A stretch of 64,000 nt of DNA from Isurus oxyrinchus. Lineage: Eukaryota. Numbering within the stretch: position 1 is the first letter of the stretch; every line of letters starts with the position of its first letter. The translations under genes and the position numbers were made by a program. Where the stretch lies: positions 142,290,001 to 142,354,000 of the forward strand of contig JANJGN010000001.1 of the NCBI GenBank assembly GCA_026770705.1. Direction: 5' to 3'. The notes beneath the pieces are model-generated. The model ran no database searches. It was given only the letters and a program-made list of their open reading frames with translations, and had not been told where the DNA came from. Shown piece by piece: positions 20,886-58,853 of this stretch.

Positions 20886-22129
20886 GAAGCAAATCATCTG
20901 CCCACTTGGGAGCATGCAAGGAGTGGTCCATTGTCACCTTTAAAATGAGTTTGTTATACTGTGGTTTCCGCTATCTTTTCAGGTGGATGTAAAAGATCCC
21001 ATGGCATCATTCCAAGATGTTGGAAGGGACTTTTCTTAGGAGTCCAATCCAACATCTATCCCTCAACTGAAAGCAGTAAACACAGATCGAATGAGGATTT
21101 ATCACATCGATGTTTGTGGGACTTCATTGTATGCAAATTGGCTGTTGTGATTTCTTACATTACAATACTACACTTCAGGACATGAAAGTCATGATATAAA
21201 TCCAAGTTTTCTTTTGGTAATGCATTCATAGGGTTAACTTGGCTTATGAAATCAGACAGAAGGCTTCCATGGCAATAAGTGAAACTTAAAGTATCATGAA
21301 GAGGAACACTGCGCAGATCTATTAATAACATGAAGCATGGCTGCATCCAGATTGCTGGTTCAATTTACGTGAGAAAGTTTGTGAAATCACTGCACCTACC
21401 CCTGTGGGTAATGAGTCAACAGTGGCTGTGGATCATTGATTGGAAAGCGTTTCTGAGAGAAGTGAAAGACCTCTTCATGTGAACAGCTTATCTGTTCACA
21501 GGCTGCATTTCAATGCACATCATTCTCACTATGCCCTTGATCACAATATTTTAAACTCTCCCCTTTTTGCGCCATTTTTTTACTACTGATTTCTGCTCTT
21601 AAAAAACACACATCAATCCATGGACTTTCTTAATGATACAACTGGTGCTTGGGATCTGAAGCTTAATTTATGTTTGTTTGACGGATAGCCACTAAGGGCA
21701 CTAGAGCAAGTCCCCAGCAGCTACTTTGGTTTTGGATTTGGAAATCCATTTATCTAATCCCCCAGAACCTTTTAAATGGAACTTTGAAGTTTGATAACGG
21801 TGAACTGATGGGGTGTGCTCTGTTGATTTAGATGGAGATTATCGTGCGTCTGATGATATTCTGAATCTCAGAATTGGATTGGAGCTGTTCTGACAAGAAA
21901 TAGACAGATTGGTTATTTAGAGGACAAGCTAGTTAACTAGTGGACAGGCTGGTTAACCAGTGGACGGGCCAGTTATTCCTTGAACAATTTAATTTTTCAG
22001 TGAACTGAGTTCCCAAAATGTAGATTCAACACCAGACATCTATTTTTTAAGAATATTTAAAAAAAAAATATGATTTGAGTGTTTTCAATGTATTTGAATC
22101 ATCTGCAGAGCCAACCACTGTAATTCCAG

Positions 22130-22339
22130 AATAAAAATGAGAAGTTCTGGGGGTACTCAGCAAATCTGGAGGCATCTGTGGAGAGAGAAACAGAGTTTTC
22201 GTGAAGAAGAGTCATATTGGACTTGAAACGTTAACTCTGTTCCACTATCCACAGAAGCTGCCAGACCTGCTGAGTATTTCCAGCACTTTCTGTTTTTATT
22301 TCAGATTTTCAGCATCTGCAGTGTTTTGCTTTCATCTCA
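22130..22339. mobile_element. Fold-back Penelope pLTR-tail unit with a degenerate hammerhead
   Basis: Arm 22130-22198 is the reverse complement of about 22233-22300. Centre gtgaagaagagtc-atattg-gactt-gaaacgttaact. Perfect 9-bp direct repeat TAATTCCAG at 22121-22129 and 22340-22348. Confidence 0.75.
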
Positions 22340-30169: not shown

Positions 30170-30460
30170 AGCTAGAGGTTTTGTGATGAAGCAGTTAGCA
30201 TTCCTGCCTCCGTGTCAGAAGCTCCAGGTGAGAGTCGCATCCCAGGACTTGATGGCCAAAGGAAGGCGCGTTCATAATGCGGCCAAACGGGTTGAGTATC
30301 AACCTGCAAATCCTTCCAACACACGCCAATGGCAGGCGGCAAGAGTGGGAGAGATTCCTGGTTAGCCATGGATGGAAAGACAGTTGGAGCCTCTCCCCTC
30401 ACCATCCATAGCTCCAGGCTAGATCATGCATGTAAAAGGGCACATTGCCATCACAACTCC
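30170..30460 (+). mobile_element. Third tRNA-headed SINE-like family
   Basis: Homologous to 38710-39005 (-) and partly to 62040-62225 (-). Confidence 0.65.
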
Positions 30461-39005: not shown

Positions 39006-41892
39006 CTTGTCCTATCCATAGTAAAAAGTCACGGAACTTTGCCATGGTTCAGTGAATAATCATCAAGGCAGAGAACTCAAGAAGAAGATAACTGGTTTGC
39101 TGGAAGTTACTATTTCCCATGTAACTGTTGAGGTGGTAAGAATGGGACCTCCTTTGGGATTCCTGTAGTAAGAATTGGAGGAGGATGAGCAAAATCAAGA
39201 AAAACCGGTGTGACTATACTTCATGCATTATGTACACATGGACCCTTATCCTAGGACCCCCGCTTAATGACCCAGACATTCCTTCTTTAGCATGTCTTCA
39301 GCAAAGTCTCTTGGGTACCAACTTGCAGGCAACTCATACCAAAGAGGCCACTTTTGCTATGGGTGTGCACTGAATCTTCTTCGACTGGATCCTTCCAAAT
39401 CCAGGACCAGTGAAGCACACAGGATTTTCTTCCCAGTAAAATGAACTGATGGACAGTAAGTCCAATGACTGTTCTGACCACTTCACCTAGAGAGCCCTGA
39501 TGTGCGAAACTGCGAACTGGGAAGATGATTCCCGTAAAATCCATCCCGAAGTGAGGATATCATTAGCATCACATTTAATGACCTTTTATGGTCAACAGCC
39601 TGTCAACATTTGATATCTAAATACACACTTGAAATAAGCCACTTTGGGGAGATACGGGAAGATTGTGGGCAAAAAATGGGACTTTCAGTACTGCCTTCAA
39701 GGCCAAAAGATTGGAAGAGATACAACTACCATCTCTAAGTTTTGATACAGCCATTAATGTGATTTCCACAGGATTTCATCAGTCTTATACAACAGCTTAA
39801 ACTTCAACTGCATCTTTAACCGCAAAAAAATTTCCCAAAAGCATTTCATAAAGTAGAAGAAGAGTTAAAGGTGATGGGCAAATAGGTGGTATAGGAAAGG
39901 AAGAGGTTAAAGGATGGAGGAGTTGACAGAGAGGGTTCCAGAGCGTGGACTGAGAGCTGCTCCATTCACAGTGGAGTATGGGGGGTTGGATGTTGACTAC
40001 AGTGCATGAAGTGCAGAATCAGGGCCAGTGAAGGCTGCTCAATAAGGGAGGGAACAAGGCCACTGGGGGGGCAGGGTGCTGTAGGGAAGAATTTTGAAAT
40101 CGCATCATTGGAGGATGATCAGAATTCAACTTCGGCCAAGGCAGATCTGATGCGGAGACGAATAGAATGCAGGATAGGGTGGGGATTAGAGTTTTGGATG
40201 AATTTCAATTTGTGAACAGCAGAACACAGGAATCCAGCAAGGAGAACTTTGGAATTATGGAGGTTGGAAGGGGCAAAGTATGATGAATAGTTTCAGTAAC
40301 TGTTCTCGTAGTGAGATATGGGTGAAAGCAGGCTGGGTTGAATGCTGAAATAGGTGCTCTAAGTGGTGGTTAGCATGTGTAATCAAAGAGGGCACCAAGG
40401 TCAGTACTCTCAAATGTAGGCTGTGCAGTCGGCTTGTGAGGGGACTAGAGTTAGGACCAAAGAACCAAGGTTTTTAATGGCATTGAACAGGATGACCTCA
40501 GTCTTATGATACCGAGTTGACTTGTTAGCTAAAAGCAGATAATTGAGGAGTGAAGAATTATGAAGGAGAGGTAGGTCAGTCCGTTGACTTTAGAAAGCTG
40601 ATCACCAGACCTATGAATGGTGTCATCTAGCACAGCTAACAAGAAGAATGAAACCTTTAATCGTAACTGAGGTGACTTTGCAAGGGCAGGAGGAGGAGCT
40701 TTTGAGGGCATTGTGCTAATTTTAGTCTGTTGATAGTGCAAAACTTGTGTATTGTTGAAAAAAGAGACATATTGAAGCTTTTTGTCTTGTACTCACCAGA
40801 ACATTCGCAGGAATACCAAATGTAAAGAACAATTTACACTTCAGGAGAAGTGAGTGCTGATTGGTTGACAAGTGGACTCTGATTGGCATTGCCATGGAGA
40901 ATGCACCAGTTAACTGATGACTGACAGTTAACTGACAAGCTTTGTTTCTTTTCAAACCAGGCAGGTTGCCACTGATTGGTCAGGGCATTGCACTGGGGAA
41001 TGAACCAGAGCATGGCCGTCACCTATTTTGGTCAGTTGAAACAGGTGCAGTGTGTGTACATGTTCTTTCTGTCTGCAAATAGCAGGATTCTGTGTATGAA
41101 TATACATGGTTTCTAGCACGTGTAAGTGGGCCACACTGTGAGTCTGACTGATAATCTTAAATTGGTTGTCAGGAGTTCTTACAGCATTCAGGGTTGTTTA
41201 TCAAAACGTTGTCAATTGTGGAAACACATCTAATATTGGACACAGTGTTTTGAGTTTTGCAAGCATGGACTGGCTGGGTACAGTCTGTACCTTGCCTATT
41301 GTGAACAGTCGAAGAGACATGCTGTTTGATACGATCCACCAGTCATTGGAATGTACTGACATTCTGCCTATCACACAAATGAGTGTGATTTATGAATTTC
41401 AGAGCCGATGTGAAGTTAGGTACGATTTTTAAAAAATCATTCATGGGATGTGGGCATTGCTGGCTGGGCCAGCATTTATTGCCCATCTGTAATTGCCCTT
41501 GAGAAGGTGGTGGTGAGCTGCCTTCTTGAACCGCTGCAGTCCATGTGTTGTAGGTACACCCACAGCGCTGTTAGAGATGGAGTTCCCCAGTCTTCGCAAA
41601 TGTGAATGTTTCCTTCACCATACATGTGCAAAACTTGCTCAAAACTGGATGTAGCAACTTGCCTAACCATTTGGTTAATTTATGTTGTACAGAACTGGTC
41701 ATAGATAAGATAGGGCACAAAAGGACATCACTTTTGTGTGTCTTGGGCAACCTATGCATACACGGGCGCAGTGAGCCTTGAGGACGAACCCTATCATATA
41801 TATCACCAGACAGCTCTTTGCGCTTCCACAAGTCCAACAAACATTTTTCAGGTCCAATCAGAGTCAACCTGCCTGGTTTAAACTTAAACAAA

Positions 41893-42130
41893 GATAAAAG
41901 CAAAATATTGCGGATGCTGGAAATCTGAAATAAAAACAGAAAATGCTAGAAAAACTCAGCAGGTCTGACAGCATCTATGGAGAGAGAAACAGAGTTAACG
42001 CTTTGAGTCCATATGACTCTTCTTTAGAGTTCTGAAGAAGTCATAAGGACTCAAAACATTAACTCTGTCTCTCTTTCCACAGATGCTGTTAGATCTGCTG
42101 AGTTTTTCCAGGATTTTCAGTTTTTATTTG
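41893..42130. mobile_element. Fold-back Penelope pLTR-tail unit with two opposed degenerate hammerheads
   Basis: About 100-bp arms inverted around 42025-42030. Flanked by aacttaaacaaa (41881-41892) and aagttaaacaaa (42131-42142). Confidence 0.75.
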
Positions 42131-50019: not shown

Positions 50020-50625
50020 TACTTGCACTTCTTTCAATTCAGTACACAGTATTCACTGCTCACAATGTGGTCTGCTCTACACTGGGGAGACCAAATGCTG
50101 ATTGGGTAATCGCTTAGTGGACCATCTCCGTTCAGTCTGCAAGCATAACCCTGAGATTCTGGTTGCCTGTCATTTTAATTCTCCACCTACTCACATCTCT
50201 GTTCTCGGCCTACTGCCGTGTACCGATGAAGCTCAACACAAGCTCAAACACAACATAACCTCGTCTTTTGATTAGGTACTTTGCCACATTCTGGACTCAA
50301 CATTGGGTTCAATAATTTCAGCCTCTTCCCCCTTTTTTTTTTCTCTTTTCTTTGCATGTCTTGGTCATAATCCTTTTGTCCCCCTGCTTTTGTTATCAGG
50401 TGGTAGCTGTTCATTATTCTGCCATTCACACCTCCTCTGGACACACCTTTTGTTTCTTTATTATGTTCCATTATCTTTGGCTCTGCACAACCAATGCTTC
50501 TGTCATTTAATGCCTCTATTCTTCTTTTTCTACCCTTCCCCATTTCACCTGCTTACATTTACATTTTTAACTTTTCCCAGTTCTGATGAAAGGTCATTGA
50601 GCTGAAACATTAACTCTGTTTCTCT
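50020..50625 (+). mobile_element. Older degenerate Penelope (Neptune-type) 3' fragment: GIY-YIG remnant + pLTR
   Basis: IHCSQCGLLYTGETK, homologous to the end of the 51023 ORF. The tail continues at 51014-51024, 53372-53400 and about 53645-53675 after nested insertions. Confidence 0.8.
50579..50615 (+). ncRNA. Degenerate minimal hammerhead motif of the older Penelope
   Basis: AGUU-CUGAUGA-A-AGGUC-auu-GAGCU-GAA-ACAU-U-AACU. Core boxes are intact, but helix II has a mismatch and the ACGU palindrome is broken. Confidence 0.55.
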
Positions 50626-51022: not shown

Positions 51023-52816
51023 GACAAGGGTGGTGCTGTTGTTGTCTGGCGCACTGACCTCTACCTCGCGGAGGCTGAGCGTCAACTCGCAGACACTTCC
51101 TCCTACCTCTCCCTGGACCATGACCCCACCACTGAACATCAAGCCATTGTTTCCAGGACTGTCACTGACCTCATCTCCTCTGGGGATCTCCCTCCCACAG
51201 CTTCCAACCTGATAGTCGCCCAACCTCGGACGGCCCGCTTCTATCTCCTACCCAAAATCCACAAACAGAACTGCCCTGGTAGACCGATCGTCTCAGCTTG
51301 CTCCTGCCCCACAGAACTCATTTCTCGTTATCTTGACTCCCTTCTCTCTCCCCTTGTCCAGTCCCTTCCCACCTATATCCGTGATTCCTCTGACACCTTA
51401 CGTCACATCAACAATTTCCAGTTCCCTGGCTCCAACCGCTTCCTCTTCACCATGGACGTCCAATCCCTCTACACCTCCATCCCCCACCAGGATGGTCTGA
51501 GGGCCCTTAGCTTCTTCCTCGAACAGAGGCCCGAACAATCCCCATCCACCACTACTCTCCTCCGTCTGGCTGAACTTGTTCTCACGTTGAACAATTTCTC
51601 CTTCAACTCCTCTCACTTTCTCCAAATAAAAGGTGTGGCTATGGGTACCCGCATGGGCCCCAGCTATGCCTGTCTCTTTATGGGGTACGTGGAACATTCC
51701 TTGTTGCAGTCCTACCCCGGCCCCCTTCCACAACTTTTTCTCCGGTACATCGATGATTACTTCGGTGCCGCTTCATGCTCTCGTCGGGACTTGGAAAAAT
51801 TTATTAATTTTGCTTCCAATCTCCACCCCTCCATCATTTTCACGTGGTCCATCTCTGACACTTCCCTTCCCTTCCTTGACCTCTCTGTCTCAATCTCTGG
51901 TGATAGACTGTCCACCAATATCCACTACAAACCCACCGACTCCCACAGCTACCTCGACTACAGCTCCTCACACCCCGCTTCCTGTAAGGACTCCATCCCA
52001 TTCTCCCAGTTCCTTCGCCTTCGTCGCATCTGTTCCGATGATGCTACCTTCAAAAACGGTTCCTCTGACATGTCCTCCTTCTTCCTTGACCGAGGTTTTC
52101 CACCCACGGTCGTTGACAGGGCCCTCAACCGTGTCCGGCCCATCTCCCGCGCATCCGCCCTCACGCCTTCTCCTCCCTCCCAGAAACATGATAGGGTCCC
52201 CCTTGTCCTCACTTATCACCCCACCAGCCTCCCCATTCAAAGGATCATCCTCCGCCATTTCCGCCAACTCCAGCATGATGCCACCACCAAACACATCTTC
52301 CCTTCACCCCCCTTATCGGCATTCCGTAGGGATCGCTCCCTCCGGGACACCCTGGTCCACTCCTCCATCACCCCCTACTCCTCAACCCCCTCCTATGGCA
52401 CCACCCCATGCCCACGCAAAAGACGTAACACCTGCCCCTTCACTTCCTCTCTCCTCACCGTCCAAGGGCCCAAACATTCCTTTCAAGTGAAGCAGCATTT
52501 CACTTGCATTTCCCCCAACTTAGTCTACTGCATTCGTTGCTCCCAATGTGGTCTCCTCTACATTGGAGAGACCAAACGTAAACTGGGCGACCGCTTTGCA
52601 GAACACCTGCGGTCTGTCCGCAAGAATGACCCAAACCTCCCTGTCGCTTGCCATTTTAACACTCCACCCTGCTCTCTTGCCCACATGTCTGTCCTTGGCT
52701 TACTGCATTGTTCCAGTGAAGCCCAACGCAAACTGGAGGAACAACACCTCATCTTCCGACTAGGCACCTTACAGCCTTCCGGTCTGAATATTGAATTCAA
52801 TAACTTTAGGTCGTGA
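51023..52816 (+). CDS. Penelope reverse transcriptase + GIY-YIG endonuclease (uninterrupted, 5'-truncated)
   Basis: DKG, FYLLPKIHK..PGRPIVS, MDVQSLYTSI, GVAMG, RYIDD, LPFLD, linker CPRKRRNTC, NLVYCIRCSQCGLLYIGETKR...RFAEH, GLN. The ORF-track N-terminus (50891-51022) is read-through of SINE sequence. Confidence 0.92.
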   Translation, partial: DKGGAVVVWRTDLYLAEAERQLADTSSYLSLDHDPTTEHQAIVSRTVTDLISSGDLPPTASNLIVAQPRTARFYLLPKIHKQNCPGRPIVSACSCPTELISRYLDSLLSPLVQSLPTYIRDSSDTLRHINNFQFPGSNRFLFTMDVQSLYTSIPHQDGLRALSFFLEQRPEQSPSTTTLLRLAELVLTLNNFSFNSSHFLQIKGVAMGTRMGPSYACLFMGYVEHSLLQSYPGPLPQLFLRYIDDYFGAASCSRRDLEKFINFASNLHPSIIFTWSISDTSLPFLDLSVSISGDRLSTNIHYKPTDSHSYLDYSSSHPASCKDSIPFSQFLRLRRICSDDATFKNGSSDMSSFFLDRGFPPTVVDRALNRVRPISRASALTPSPPSQKHDRVPLVLTYHPTSLPIQRIILRHFRQLQHDATTKHIFPSPPLSAFRRDRSLRDTLVHSSITPYSSTPSYGTTPCPRKRRNTCPFTSSLLTVQGPKHSFQVKQHFTCISPNLVYCIRCSQCGLLYIGETKRKLGDRFAEHLRSVRKNDPNLPVACHFNTPPCSLAHMSVLGLLHCSSEAQRKLEEQHLIFRLGTLQPSGLNIEFNNFRS

Positions 52817-53371
52817 GCTCCCTCCCCCATCCCCACCCCCTTTCTGTTTCCCCCTTTTTTTCCCCCCTTTTTTTTCCCAATACATTTTATAGATTTTTCT
52901 TTTCCCACCTATTTCCATTATTTTTAAATATTTTAAAATCTTTTATGCTCCCCCCACCCCCACTAGAGCTGTACCTTGAGTGCCCTACCATCTATTCTTA
53001 ATTAGCACATTCGTTTAGATAATATCACCAACTTTAACTTTAACACCTATGTGTTCTTTTGCACCATTGTCACTGACATCTTTTGATGATCTGCTTCTAT
53101 CACTGCTTGTTTGTCTACACAAGCACCTCTGTCTCTCTCTCTCTCTCACCGCCCCCCCCCCCCCCCCTCCACACACACACACACACACACCTTAAACCAG
53201 CTTATATTTCAACTCTTTCTTGGACTCGAAATCAAGTTCTGTCGAAGGGTCATGAGGACTCGAAACGTCAACTCTTTTCTTCTCCGCCGATGCTGCCAGA
53301 CCTGCTGAGTTTTTCCAGGTAATTCTGTTTTTGTTTTGGATTTCCAGCATCCGCAGTTTTCTTTGTTTTCA
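51025..53371 (+). mobile_element. Young 5'-truncated Penelope-like retroelement (Neptune-type), copy 1
   Basis: RT+GIY-YIG ORF and pLTR with hammerhead. TSD TCTCCATAGA at 51015-51024 and 53372-53381. Confidence 0.93.
53235..53273 (+). ncRNA. Minimal type-I hammerhead ribozyme (variant core CUGUCGA)
   Basis: AGUU-CUGUCGA-A-GGGUC-augag-GACUC-GAA-ACGU-C-AACU. Predicted cleavage after GUC at 53269. Confidence 0.7.
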
Positions 53372-54759
53372 TCTCCATAGATATTGCCTGACCTGTTGAC
53401 CTGATTGTGCTTTATGAGCATATGATGAAAAGGTCTAGGCCTCATTTGGAAATTGAACCATTTACACTACTAGTTGTGTGCAGGCTCATTTGCTACCCTC
53501 ATCACAATCAGTCTCCAAGGACCACCTACCAATATGGAATGGAGAAACAAGCCATGGGTAAAGTGAATAAACAACCAGTGTAATCGGGTTGACATCCTGC
53601 TTGCTTATTCTCAGAAACCCAGGCTGAAGGCCAAATCCATTGGACTGATTGATTTCCAGCATTTTCTGTTTTTAGACTTTTGTGTCTCTGGACTATTATG
53701 GGTAACTTTGTTTTCAAATATGTGAAGAATTAATGTTGTTCGGAAGGTCTTCATGATATTGGAGACTGGGAAGGGAAGCATGAGTCTGGATTGAATGAAC
53801 TGAAGGATACAAGAGGGTGAGGGAGGTTCTATACAGAAATAAACTCATAACCAGAGATAACAATGAAGAACTCATGAAGCAAACAATTAAACACAACTTA
53901 AGGAATTACTGCATCATTCACAGGGGGTATACCCAAGAGAAGGTCAACAGGAGGAATTTTACGCCTTTAAGGTTAACTCCAGGAAGAAGGTTTCACCTGC
54001 TGTAATCGTTTTCCGATTGACAAGAAGCTATTAAAGTGGATTTAGTGCAAGTAAGTGTAAACAGAAAAATGTCACTGCGGCAGAGTTCTAGGAACGAGTG
54101 GGATCAATGAGGGTTAATGAGGCAGTGGGGGTGCGGTGGTATGGATGCAGTGGAGGCATTTAGGCAGGATTTGAACAAGAAGAGTCAGATTGCAGGAAAT
54201 GAACTATCTTTTCACATTCTTGTATTCTTATCACTGAATTGCAGTCTGATATTTTCTCAAAAATTGTGCAGTTGGCAACGTTCCAGAGATCACAAAGGTT
54301 CTAATTTGAAGGAATGTTGGTGACTGCATTGCTTTTAAGATCACTTCCGAAATGATTGCTTCCTTTTCAGCAGGCATCATTTAAAAGTCCAGGTACCTCT
54401 GGCACTTTACATTACCTTAAATAAGTAATTTCCTGTCAAACATAAAATTTAAATGAAGCTCTTCCCGAATGCTAGGCTGGAGAAATGCGAATTGTTAGAT
54501 TTACAAAACTGCAGATAGAAAGTGATGGTGAACAGCACATTGGGGGTGCTCCACTGGGGCCATTGTGCCCTTGGTTCTGGAATGGAGAGATAGCGTTTGA
54601 TGCTGGGCTTGTGTTCACCTGGAGACCGATGTTCTGATTCCTAAGCTCAATCTGTCCTATATCCCTCACTTTCACTGTGCATTACACCCGCCCAGTCCAC
54701 ATTTTCTACTCTGAGACTCAGAGCACCATCACTGCGGAGTGCTGCATAATGCAGTCTGT

Positions 54760-56859: not shown

Positions 56860-58359
56860 CTCATTTCTCGTTATCTTGACTCCCTTCTCTCTCCCCTTGT
56901 CCAGTCCCTTCCCACTTACATCCGTGATTCCTCTGACACCTTACATCACATCAACAATTTCCAGTTCCCTGGCCCCAACCGCTTCCTCTTCACCATGGAC
57001 GTCCAATCCCTCTACACCTCCATCCCCCACCAGCATGGTCTGAGGGCCCTTAGCTTCTTCCTCGAACAGAGGCCCGAACAATCCCCATCCACCACTACTC
57101 TCCTCCGTCTGGCTGAACTTGTTCTCACGTTGAACAATTTCTCCTTCAACTCCTCTCACTTTCTCCAAATAAAAGGTGTGGCTATGGGTACCCGCATGGG
57201 CCCCAGCTATGCCTGTCTCTTTATGGGGTATGTGGAACATTCCTTGTTGCAGTCCTACTCCGGCCCCCTTCCACAACTTTTTCTCCGGTACATCGATGAT
57301 TACTTCGGTGCCGCTTCATTCTCTTGTTGGGACTTGGAAAAATTTATTAATTTTGCTTCCAATCTCCACCCCTCCATCATTTTCACGTGGTCCATCTCTG
57401 ACACTTCCCTTCCCTTCCTTGACCTCTCTGTCTCAATCTCTGGTGATAGACTGTCCACCAATATCCATTACAAACCCACCGACTCCCACAGCTACCTCGA
57501 CTACTGCTCCTCACACTCCGCTTCCTGTAAGGACTCCATCCCATTCTCCCAGTTCCTTCACCTTCGTCGCATCTGTTCCTATGATGCTACCTTCAAAAAC
57601 GGTTCCTCTGACATGTCCTCCTTCTTCCTTAACCGAGGTTTTCCACCCACGGTCGTTGACAGGGCCCTCAACCGTGTCCGGCCCATCTCCCGCGCATCCG
57701 CCCTCACGCCTTCTCCTCCCTCCCAGAAACATGATAGGGTCCCCCTTGTCCTCACTTATCACCCCACTAGCCTCCGCATTCAAAGGATCATCCTCCGCCA
57801 TTTCCACCAACTCCAGCATGATGCCACCACCAAACACATCTTCCCTTCACCCCCCTTATCGGCATTCCGTAGGGATCGCTCCCTCCGGGACACCCTGGTC
57901 CACTCCTCCATCACCCCCTACTCCTCAACCCCCTCCTATGGCACCACCCCATGCCCACGCAAAAGATGTAACACCTGCCCCTTCACTTCCTCTCTCCTCA
58001 CCGTCCAAGGGCCCAAACACTCCTTTCAAGTGAAGCAGCATTTCACTTGCATTTCCCCCAACTTAGTCTACTGCATTCGTTGCTCCCAATGTGGTCTCCT
58101 CTACATTGGAGAGACCAAACGTAAACTGGGCGACCGCTTTGCACAACACCTGCGGTCTGTCTGCAAGAATGACCCAAACCTCCCTGTCGCTTGCCATTTT
58201 AACACTCCACCCTGCTCTCTTGCCCACATGTCTGTCCTTGGCTTGCTGCATTGTTCCAGTGAAGTCCAACGCAAACTGGAGGAACAACACCTCATTTTCC
58301 GACTAGGCACCTTACAGCCTTCCGGACTGAATATTGAATTCAACAACTTTAGGTCATGA
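56860..58359 (+). CDS. Penelope RT + GIY-YIG endonuclease (uninterrupted, 5'-truncated; in frame with upstream CR1 sequence)
   Basis: MDVQSLYTSI, RYIDD, CPRKRCNTC, VYCIRCSQCGLLYIGETKR. Confidence 0.9.
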   Translation, partial: LISRYLDSLLSPLVQSLPTYIRDSSDTLHHINNFQFPGPNRFLFTMDVQSLYTSIPHQHGLRALSFFLEQRPEQSPSTTTLLRLAELVLTLNNFSFNSSHFLQIKGVAMGTRMGPSYACLFMGYVEHSLLQSYSGPLPQLFLRYIDDYFGAASFSCWDLEKFINFASNLHPSIIFTWSISDTSLPFLDLSVSISGDRLSTNIHYKPTDSHSYLDYCSSHSASCKDSIPFSQFLHLRRICSYDATFKNGSSDMSSFFLNRGFPPTVVDRALNRVRPISRASALTPSPPSQKHDRVPLVLTYHPTSLRIQRIILRHFHQLQHDATTKHIFPSPPLSAFRRDRSLRDTLVHSSITPYSSTPSYGTTPCPRKRCNTCPFTSSLLTVQGPKHSFQVKQHFTCISPNLVYCIRCSQCGLLYIGETKRKLGDRFAQHLRSVCKNDPNLPVACHFNTPPCSLAHMSVLGLLHCSSEVQRKLEEQHLIFRLGTLQPSGLNIEFNNFRS

Positions 58360-58853
58360 GCTCCCTCCCCCATCCCCACCCCCTTTCTGTTTCCCCCTTT
58401 TTTTTCCCAATAAATTATATAGATTTTTCTTTTCCCACCTATTTCCATTATTTTTAAATATTTTAAAATCTTTTATGCTCCCTCCACCCCCACTAGAGCT
58501 GTACCTTGAGTGCCCTACCATCCATTCTTAATTAGCACATTCGTTTAGATAATATCACCAACTTTAACTTTAACAGCTATGTGTTCTATTGTACCATTGT
58601 CGTTGACATCTTTTGATGATCTGCTTCTATCACTGCTTGTTTGTCCACACAACCACACACCCCCCCACCTCTCTCTCTCTCTCTCTCTCCGCCCCCCACA
58701 CACACACCTTAAACCAGCTTATATTTCAACTCTTTCTTGGACTCGAAACCAAGTTCTGTCGAAGGGTCATGAGGACTCGAAACGTCAGCTCTTTTCTTCT
58801 CCGCCGATGCTGCCAGACCTGCTGAGTTTTTCCAGGTAATTCTGTTTTTGTTT
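56862..58853 (+). mobile_element. Young 5'-truncated Penelope-like retroelement, copy 2
   Basis: About 98% identical to copy 1 by eye. TSD CCTGATAATCT at 56851-56861 and 58854-58864. Confidence 0.93.
58752..58790 (+). ncRNA. Minimal type-I hammerhead ribozyme (variant core CUGUCGA), copy 2
   Basis: Identical to 53235-53273 except AACU>AGCU, which keeps helix I through a U-G wobble. Confidence 0.7.

What the first reader, a model, noticed from the sequence alone, without database searches (positions are those of the whole stretch)
53235..53273. Young Penelope family carries a minimal, dimer-type hammerhead with a non-canonical CUGUCGA core
Seen: both young copies (here and 58752-58790) fold as helix I AGUU/AACU, core CUGUCGA, an extra A, a 5-bp helix II GGGUC/GACUC, GAA, palindromic ACGU and a GUC triplet. 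The single difference between copies keeps pairing (U-G wobble). Established: Penelope pLTRs carry minimal type-I hammerheads whose palindromic helix III forms in dimers, and the canonical core is CUGANGA. Inference: A6 is replaced by U in both recent insertions, whereas older relatives here have CUGAUGA (50583) or CUGAAGA (42032). The change was therefore in the active master element, which is either a functional or attenuated core variant or an element that transposes without cleavage.
Basis: partly seen in the sequence, partly recalled or inferred. Interest (0 to 1): 0.78.

Follow-up and report, generated by a model that had tools for sequence, protein, structure and literature searches.

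The report
Penelope hammerhead with eroded core letter
A very abundant jumping-gene family in this animal genome kept multiplying after its small self-cutting RNA motif lost a normally fixed core letter, which likely weakens the cutting and suggests that cutting is not needed for jumping, though cutting itself is untested.

Summary
Confirmed. 53235-53273 and 58752-58790 are minimal type-I hammerhead motifs in the pseudo-LTRs of two 5'-truncated Penelope-like (RT + GIY-YIG) insertions, with U at core position 6. The exact 30-nt U6 motif occurs 61,194 times in G000; A6 in the same context 141 times. It arose several subfamilies ago, is shared with a second species, and a sister sub-lineage went on to C6. 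The five later master changes in the motif are all hammerhead-compatible, but the elapsed divergence is small (4-fold sites 9/95), so selection for catalysis is not shown. Copies span the predicted cut site and start far more often at the motif's first base (at most 5,605) than at the cut (240); the older A6 family shows no cut-site peak either. Most likely this is a weakened ribozyme whose cutting is not needed for insertion, as shown in vitro for an anole element. No cleavage or RNA data were obtained. The scan noted this before on other pieces of this genome, and A6U/A6C in other genomes. New variant of a known kind; interest 0.45.

The parts
53235..53273 (+). Minimal type-I hammerhead motif with U6 core (helix I 53235-38/53270-73, core 53239-45, extra A 53246, helix II 53247-51/53257-61, GAA 53262-64, palindrome 53265-68, predicted cut after 53269)
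   Evidence: cleavage untested
58752..58790 (+). Second copy of the motif, one A>G in helix I
51023..53375 (+). 5'-truncated Penelope-like insertion 1, 98% identical to the tandem unit in L013; ends with the long tail; flanked by a short direct repeat of about 10-12 bases read by eye as a target-site duplication
56860..58853 (+). 5'-truncated Penelope-like insertion 2, short tail, 11-base direct repeat at its ends, interrupting an older LINE-like RT element (CR1-like by recalled motifs)
51023..52816 (+). Open reading frame remnant: RT (Pfam RVT_1, E 4.5e-8) and GIY-YIG (E 5.8e-4, below Pfam cut-off); the CX4CXXC linker is intact in copy 2 and L013, with one Cys changed in copy 1
53222..53231 (+). 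Upstream near-copy of the hammerhead's helix-II 3' strand plus GAAA, found only in the youngest stage; predicted to compete for the helix-II 5' strand
   Evidence: function untested
53274..53375 (+). pLTR 3' part and tail downstream of the predicted cut; holds a block of about 30 nt almost invariant across stages; copies end at two main places (near 53337 and near 53370)
   Evidence: RT-start role inferred from PMC11167929
42028..42064 (+). Older A6 relative (CUGAAGA) in a head-to-head pLTR pair
50579..50615 (+). Oldest-type A6 relative (CUGAUGA), decayed

Best explanation
The motif is the pseudo-LTR hammerhead of a Penelope-like retrotransposon, its core position 6 is U in over 60,000 genomic copies, and it likely cuts weakly or not at all in cells while the element is likely copied from uncut RNA. 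Shown: family membership, fixation of U6 in the amplifying lineage, a C6 sub-lineage, copies that span the predicted cut site, and many copies that start at the motif's first base. Inferred: the transcript begins at or near that first base; RT starts in the tail downstream of the cut site; A6U lowers cleavage as A6C and other CUGA-turn changes do in other hammerheads. Also inferred: the rest of the motif persists through a mix of short elapsed time and an overlapping role (start-site or promoter signal, or protein-binding fold), perhaps with slow residual cutting.
For: U6C7 61,194 against A6 141; 99 of the first 100 of 72,948 core-free matches have U6. A6 never re-expanded. C/G6 gives 1,774 matches, 85 of the first 100 CUGCUGA; 6 of 13 C6 copies with upstream sequence share spacer endings absent from the U6 stage D/E list, and 2 loci carry C6 in both arms, so position 6 changed twice in amplifying masters. 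Junction-type starts: 240 at the cut site, 82 at a -4 control, 5,605 at the first base (up to 36 of the first 100 may be upstream variants, not junctions); 0 of 29 unselected copies start within 5 nt of the cut. Older A6 family: 204 against 4,415 intact, and 16 of 30 inspected still carry upstream hammerhead sequence. Predicted helix II probability in context falls from 0.44-0.62 (stages A-C) to 0.11-0.30 (D-F). Literature: hammerhead mutants did not affect insertion in vitro and no RNA-seq ends were found at the cut site in the anole element (PMC11167929). CUGA-turn single and double mutants had low activity except the C-G swap (PMC9901934). A6C cut a rate from 0.3 to 3.55e-6 per min at 0.3 mM Mg (PMC7151607). 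Naiads amplify without canonical hammerheads (PMC8557442).
Against: All 5 other master changes in the motif after U6 (N7, two loop-II bases, H17 U>C, one A-U>G-U) are hammerhead-compatible (conditional P 0.001-0.004), and the other 10 core bases never changed, which is what continued selection on the ribozyme fold would give. The cut-site count is three times the -4 control, so a small cleaved fraction is not excluded. The fold decline is not significant against a same-position null (5.7% of 300). No rate for A6U itself was found in my searches. The anole hammerhead cut only with its protein, which folding programs cannot see. No RNA data were obtained.
Confidence: 0.55

Rival explanations
1. 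The U6 motif is a slow but working ribozyme still under selection for cleavage (in tandem dimers, with the element's protein or with Mn2+), serving a step other than templating insertions, such as processing read-through transcripts or tuning translation.
For: 5 of 5 later changes are compatible and 0 fall in the other 10 core bases. H17 moved to the GUC triplet. Tandem units 3,353 nt apart exist. Natural A6C hammerheads keep low activity and are rescued by Mn2+. The anole hammerhead is protein-assisted.
Against: The ORF clock predicts only 2.6-2.8 incompatible changes (P of none 0.06-0.08). A neighbouring non-hammerhead block is equally invariant. There is no cut-site peak among copy starts. 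Competing helices are predicted in the young stages.
Confidence: 0.27
2. The ribozyme was actively selected against: cutting would remove the downstream tail or the 5' end, so masters with a pyrimidine at 6, competing helices and an upstream decoy out-amplified their ancestors.
For: A6 never re-expanded. The upstream spacer changed stepwise, much faster than the 4-fold clock (D to F 9/169), into a near-copy of the helix-II 3' strand plus GAAA. Predicted upstream pairing of the helix-II 5' strand rises from 0.01-0.02 to 0.24-0.44. Exact-match counts rise from thousands to about 70,000.
Against: Exact-match counts favour young copies. The fold decline is within the null. The upstream change could be promoter evolution or template slippage. 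Selection against cutting would be expected to hit G8 or G12 as readily as A6.
Confidence: 0.13
3. Assembly artefact or post-insertion decay in two copies.
For: None.
Against: 61,194 exact copies on both strands; the same letter in contigs from sequencing runs of two organisms.
Confidence: 0.01

Closest known systems
Minimal type-I hammerheads (min-HHR) in pseudo-LTRs of metazoan Penelope-like elements (Cervera and de la Pena 2014, PMC4209133; main text parts 1-2 of 4 and supplement file 2 part 2 of 3 read)
   Same: Position in the pLTR, short helix I, extra base between 9 and 10.1, G10.1-C11.1 pair, palindromic 15.2-16.2 with no stem III, thousands of solo copies.
   Different: U (and in a sub-lineage C) at position 6. 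All 44 alignment rows that I saw have A6 and none is from a cartilaginous fish; their consensus is CUGANGAH, so a search built on it would miss this family.
PAc Poseidon element of Anolis carolinensis (Frangieh et al. 2024, PMC11167929; parts 1-2 of 4 read)
   Same: RT + GIY-YIG ORF, tandem units, hammerhead upstream of two tail ends, insertion from uncut RNA.
   Different: The paper reports no A6 change in PAc, whose hammerhead cuts with protein and overlaps the start codon. Here the core is altered, the main ORF starts downstream, and the RT-EN linker has the CX4CXXC motif of Neptune/Nematis-type elements.
Natural A6C hammerhead of phage Bcep176 (Perreault et al. 2011, PMC3088659, section 8 and passages; Naghdi et al. 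2020, PMC7151607, part 1 of 4)
   Same: A pyrimidine replaces A6 in a natural hammerhead; the C6 sub-lineage here has the same CUGCUGA core as the mutant they tested.
   Different: A single phage motif with measured low, Mn-favoured activity; here the change is mainly U, in a minimal dimer-type motif fixed across more than 60,000 copies, and activity is untested.

Membership tests
EN+ Penelope-like element | Single ORF with RT and C-terminal GIY-YIG endonuclease | tested here: met
   Pfam RVT_1 above cut-off; GIY-YIG E 6e-4 to 8e-4, just under cut-off; 865-aa open frame in L013
EN+ Penelope-like element | Tandem or partial-tandem units forming pLTRs, inverted 5'-truncated copies, optional tail | tested here: met
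   Three direct motifs 3,353 and about 3,340 nt apart, many head-to-head pairs, two tail lengths
Neptune/Nematis-type PLE | CX2-5CxxC linker between RT and EN | tested here: met
   CX4CXXC in L013 and window copy 2; definition from PMC8557442 passages
Neptune/Nematis-type PLE | Placement in the clade by RT phylogeny | not tested
   No tree with reference elements was built
PLE minimal hammerhead | Located in the pLTR; helix II with G10.1-C11.1; extra base after A9; palindromic 15.2-16.2; NUH triplet; short helix I | tested here: met
PLE minimal hammerhead | Canonical core CUGANGA...GAAA | tested here: not met
   Position 6 is U in 99 of the first 100 core-free matches. Descent from A6 members is shown, so it is a derived variant, not a canonical member.
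PLE minimal hammerhead | Helix covariation | tested here: inconclusive
   Within the lineage only one-sided changes (A-U>G-U in helix II; C.A>U-A in helix I). Two-sided changes against the oldest family (AGGUC/GACCU) were seen by eye in 2 rows and not formally counted.
PLE minimal hammerhead | Dimer through helix III | tested here: inconclusive
   Co-folding two 39-mers gave a swapped helix II, not the ACGU helix; the constrained energy evaluation failed
Hammerhead ribozyme | Self-cleavage 3' of H17 | not testable with these tools
   Needs an assay; genomic copy starts show no peak at the site

The most novel reading that the evidence does not exclude
A vertebrate Penelope lineage records, subfamily by subfamily, selection that disabled its own ribozyme: A6 to pyrimidine twice, then competing helices and an upstream decoy, followed by its largest expansion. 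The pLTR hammerhead would then be a brake on, or parasite of, the element and not part of its copying, and the genome would supply a ready graded series to test this.
Probability: 0.15. Interest if true: 0.75.

Novelty: new variant of a known kind. Interest (0 to 1): 0.45.

Why it matters
What the pLTR hammerhead does is still open (PMC8557442 calls it unclear; PMC11167929 finds it dispensable in vitro). This genome gives natural evidence at scale: a lineage that amplified to more than 60,000 copies with a core change that likely impairs cleavage. It also offers an ordered series of natural variants (A6, U6, C6; with and without competing helices) that makes the question directly testable. If the U6 dimer does cut, the hammerhead core consensus and the search descriptors need widening, and large families are being missed.

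Tried and rejected
Rfam scan: no hammerhead family match in the window; its mir-3202 hits at 41971-42086 are the inverted pLTR pair, not a microRNA. A second, canonical hammerhead within the unit: no candidate on the sense strand of the L013 unit. Cleavage fossil in copy starts: no peak in U6 or A6 families; of 30 inspected U6 cut-site junctions, 18 were flagged as inversions (5 on helix-I microhomology), 7 kept upstream hammerhead sequence (one in both groups), 2 more were inversions by eye and 4 were solo starts. The U-G difference between the two window copies as covariation: rejected as a single-copy transition. Dimer energy: calculation failed. Fold erosion as proof of selection: not significant. 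Runs X21 and X22 (organisms C, D) laid 2 and 0 reads, so no test. RNA-run data were not obtained, so expression, start site and cleavage ends stay open. Literature searches for an A6U natural hammerhead or shark PLE hammerheads listed none by title or abstract start. Lunse et al. 2017, the most relevant paper on PLE hammerhead variants, is not held (only its title seen), and supplement file 1 of PMC4209133 could not be searched, so prior description is not excluded. The bioRxiv retrozyme preprint 10.64898/2026.07.22.740005 (part 1 of 5 and passages) used canonical and minimal descriptors, and its main text had no hit for 'catalytic core' or 'CUGA'.

Full report
Observation. The motif is at the stated coordinates in both copies, with the stated helices, core, extra A, palindrome and GUC triplet. 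It lies about 420 nt downstream of the stop codon of an RT + GIY-YIG frame. Both window elements are 5'-truncated (51023-53375 and 56860-58853), 98% and 95% identical over their whole length to a tandem unit of 3,353 nt with an 865-aa open frame elsewhere in G000. The CX4CXXC linker points to the Neptune/Nematis type as defined in PMC8557442 (passages); I built no tree. The host looks like a cartilaginous fish from recalled repeat types; no call names it.

Is U6 a family trait? Yes. The exact 30-nt motif occurs 61,194 times in 4.98 Gb. With A at position 6 and any base at 7 there are 141, and with the seven core bases free there are 72,948, of which 99 of the first 100 listed have U6. In 800 kb taken without regard to content, a descriptor with position 6 free found 13 intact motifs, all U6. 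Contigs from runs of two organisms show no other letter at 53242 above the 5% threshold; inside the motif the listed differences are at CpG sites only. A marker at 53231 is about 99% C in organism B and about 56% C in organism A, so the U6C7 family predates their split and likely stayed active afterwards in A.

History. I collected 186 motif copies from the loci held at that point and assigned 130 to seven stages by loop, helix and flank markers; 24 more lacked upstream sequence and 32 were unassigned. Stages A and B were separated by position 6 itself. The order is CUGAAGA (O), CUGAUGA (A), CUGUUGA (B), loop changes (C, D), helix II GAGUC to GGGUC with H17 U to C (D), new flanks (E), and N7 U to C (F). 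In the GAGUC background 4,189 of 7,410 matches are U6, which places the switch there. ORF copy divergence is 4.3% (A), 4.2% (B), 3.0% (D), 3.8% (E, few sites) and 0.9% (F). U6 is therefore several master generations old. A search for C or G at 6 gave 1,774 matches, 85 of the first 100 being CUGCUGA and only 9 CUGCCGA, although C7 copies are about seven times commoner. Twenty of these loci were fetched: 8 of 13 C6 copies with upstream sequence share one spacer type, 6 with endings not seen in the U6 stage D/E list, and 2 loci carry C6 in both arms. I infer a C6 sub-lineage of the order of a thousand copies.

Is the rest still under selection? After U6 the master changed at N7, two loop-II bases, H17 and one pair (A-U to G-U), and at none of the other ten core bases. 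Given five changes, the chance that all are compatible is 0.001-0.004. The 4-fold clock between B and F is only 9 of 95 sites, so just 2.6-2.8 incompatible changes were expected and seeing none has P 0.06-0.08. A block of about 30 nt downstream, outside the hammerhead, is as invariant. Many loci were fetched with patterns that fix the core, which would hide a sub-lineage with another core change; searches are the unbiased checks and show none that is common. The evidence is suggestive of constraint but does not show that the constraint is catalytic.

Are copies made from cut RNA? Patterns demanding three non-matching bases before a given point counted 240 starts at the cut site, 82 at a control four bases upstream (a longer pattern) and 5,605 at the motif's first base, of which up to 36 of the first 100 may be upstream variants. 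Of 30 cut-site cases inspected, most were inversions or small deletions and 4 were solo starts. None of 29 unselected copies starts within 5 nt of the cut; ten have their limit at 53234-53235, a mix of true starts and older upstream sequence. The older A6 family gives 204 against 4,415 intact, with 16 of 30 inspected still holding upstream hammerhead sequence. Copies end well downstream of the cut. So templates were mostly uncut both before and after U6, in line with the anole element, where hammerhead mutants did not affect insertion and no RNA-seq ends mapped to the site (PMC11167929). That the RNA begins at the motif's first base is my inference.

Folding. The isolated 39-mer forms helix II (P 0.98) but is no more stable than shuffles. 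With downstream sequence, mean helix II probability falls from 0.50, 0.62 and 0.44 (A-C) to 0.30, 0.23 and 0.11 (D-F). With upstream sequence the helix-II 5' strand pairs upstream at 0.24-0.44 in D-F against 0.01-0.02 earlier. The spacer upstream changed stepwise into a near-copy of the helix-II 3' strand plus GAAA. The decline is not significant against a same-position null (5.7% of 300), and such programs ignore tertiary contacts, dimers and protein help.

Expected effect of A6U. I found no rate for A6U. A6C is expected to break one or two hydrogen bonds and gave under 0.1 per min in a natural variant (PMC3088659 section 8); it fell to 3.55e-6 per min at 0.3 mM Mg but 0.18 in Mn in another (PMC7151607). 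Pairwise mutagenesis found low activity for single and double mutants of the CUGA turn, except the C-G swap (PMC9901934 passages). Minimal PLE hammerheads are already slow with a canonical core (PMC4209133). Weak or no cutting is thus the likely state; it is inferred, not shown.

Comparison and novelty. PLE pLTR hammerheads, inverted pairs and tails are known. All 44 rows seen of the published alignment have A6, and my searches listed no A6U natural case, but Lunse et al. 2017 was not available. Earlier notes of this scan report the same change on other pieces of this genome, and A6U or A6C in other genomes. They are unchecked AI notes; I tested the same-genome claim myself and not the others. 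Added here: the stage series, the clock, the C6 sub-lineage, genome-wide start counts and the upstream near-copy.

Verdict. Real, family-wide, a new variant of a known kind. Most likely a weakened hammerhead not needed for insertion (0.55); a slow working variant remains possible (0.27); active selection against cutting is the bold reading (about 0.15). Interest 0.45.

Noticed in passing
window 30254-30317 (+): HDV/CPEB3-like fold (Rfam CPEB3 E 0.0077, 26.6 bits against gathering 35) with a perfect 6-bp outer helix and a stable inner hairpin; possibly a decayed HDV-like ribozyme of another retroelement.
   Followed up: partly
window 53222-53231; stages D-F: The spacer upstream of the hammerhead changed stepwise and fast into a near-copy of the helix-II 3' strand plus GAAA; decoy, promoter change or template slippage.
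   Followed up: partly
G000, loci L273-L292: A sub-lineage with C at core position 6 (CUGCUGA), about 1,500 matches by extrapolation from 85 of 100 listed of 1,774.
   Followed up: yes
window 53252-53254 and 53317-53325: An ATG in loop II (short upstream ORF) appears at stage C, and a splice-donor-like CAG|GT site appears at stage B and improves at stage E (donor consensus recalled). No RNA test.
   Followed up: no
window 53264-53271: The H17 U>C change also creates a CRE/ATF-like half-site on the DNA (motif recalled), a possible non-ribozyme reason for that change.
   Followed up: no
window 41884-42129 and about 22100-22338: Head-to-head pairs of older A6 pLTR ends; the first gives false mir-3202 hits in Rfam.
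   Followed up: partly
L013:5480-5540: The near-intact unit appears to have a frame break near the start of its ORF, upstream of the 865-aa open stretch (read by eye).
   Followed up: no
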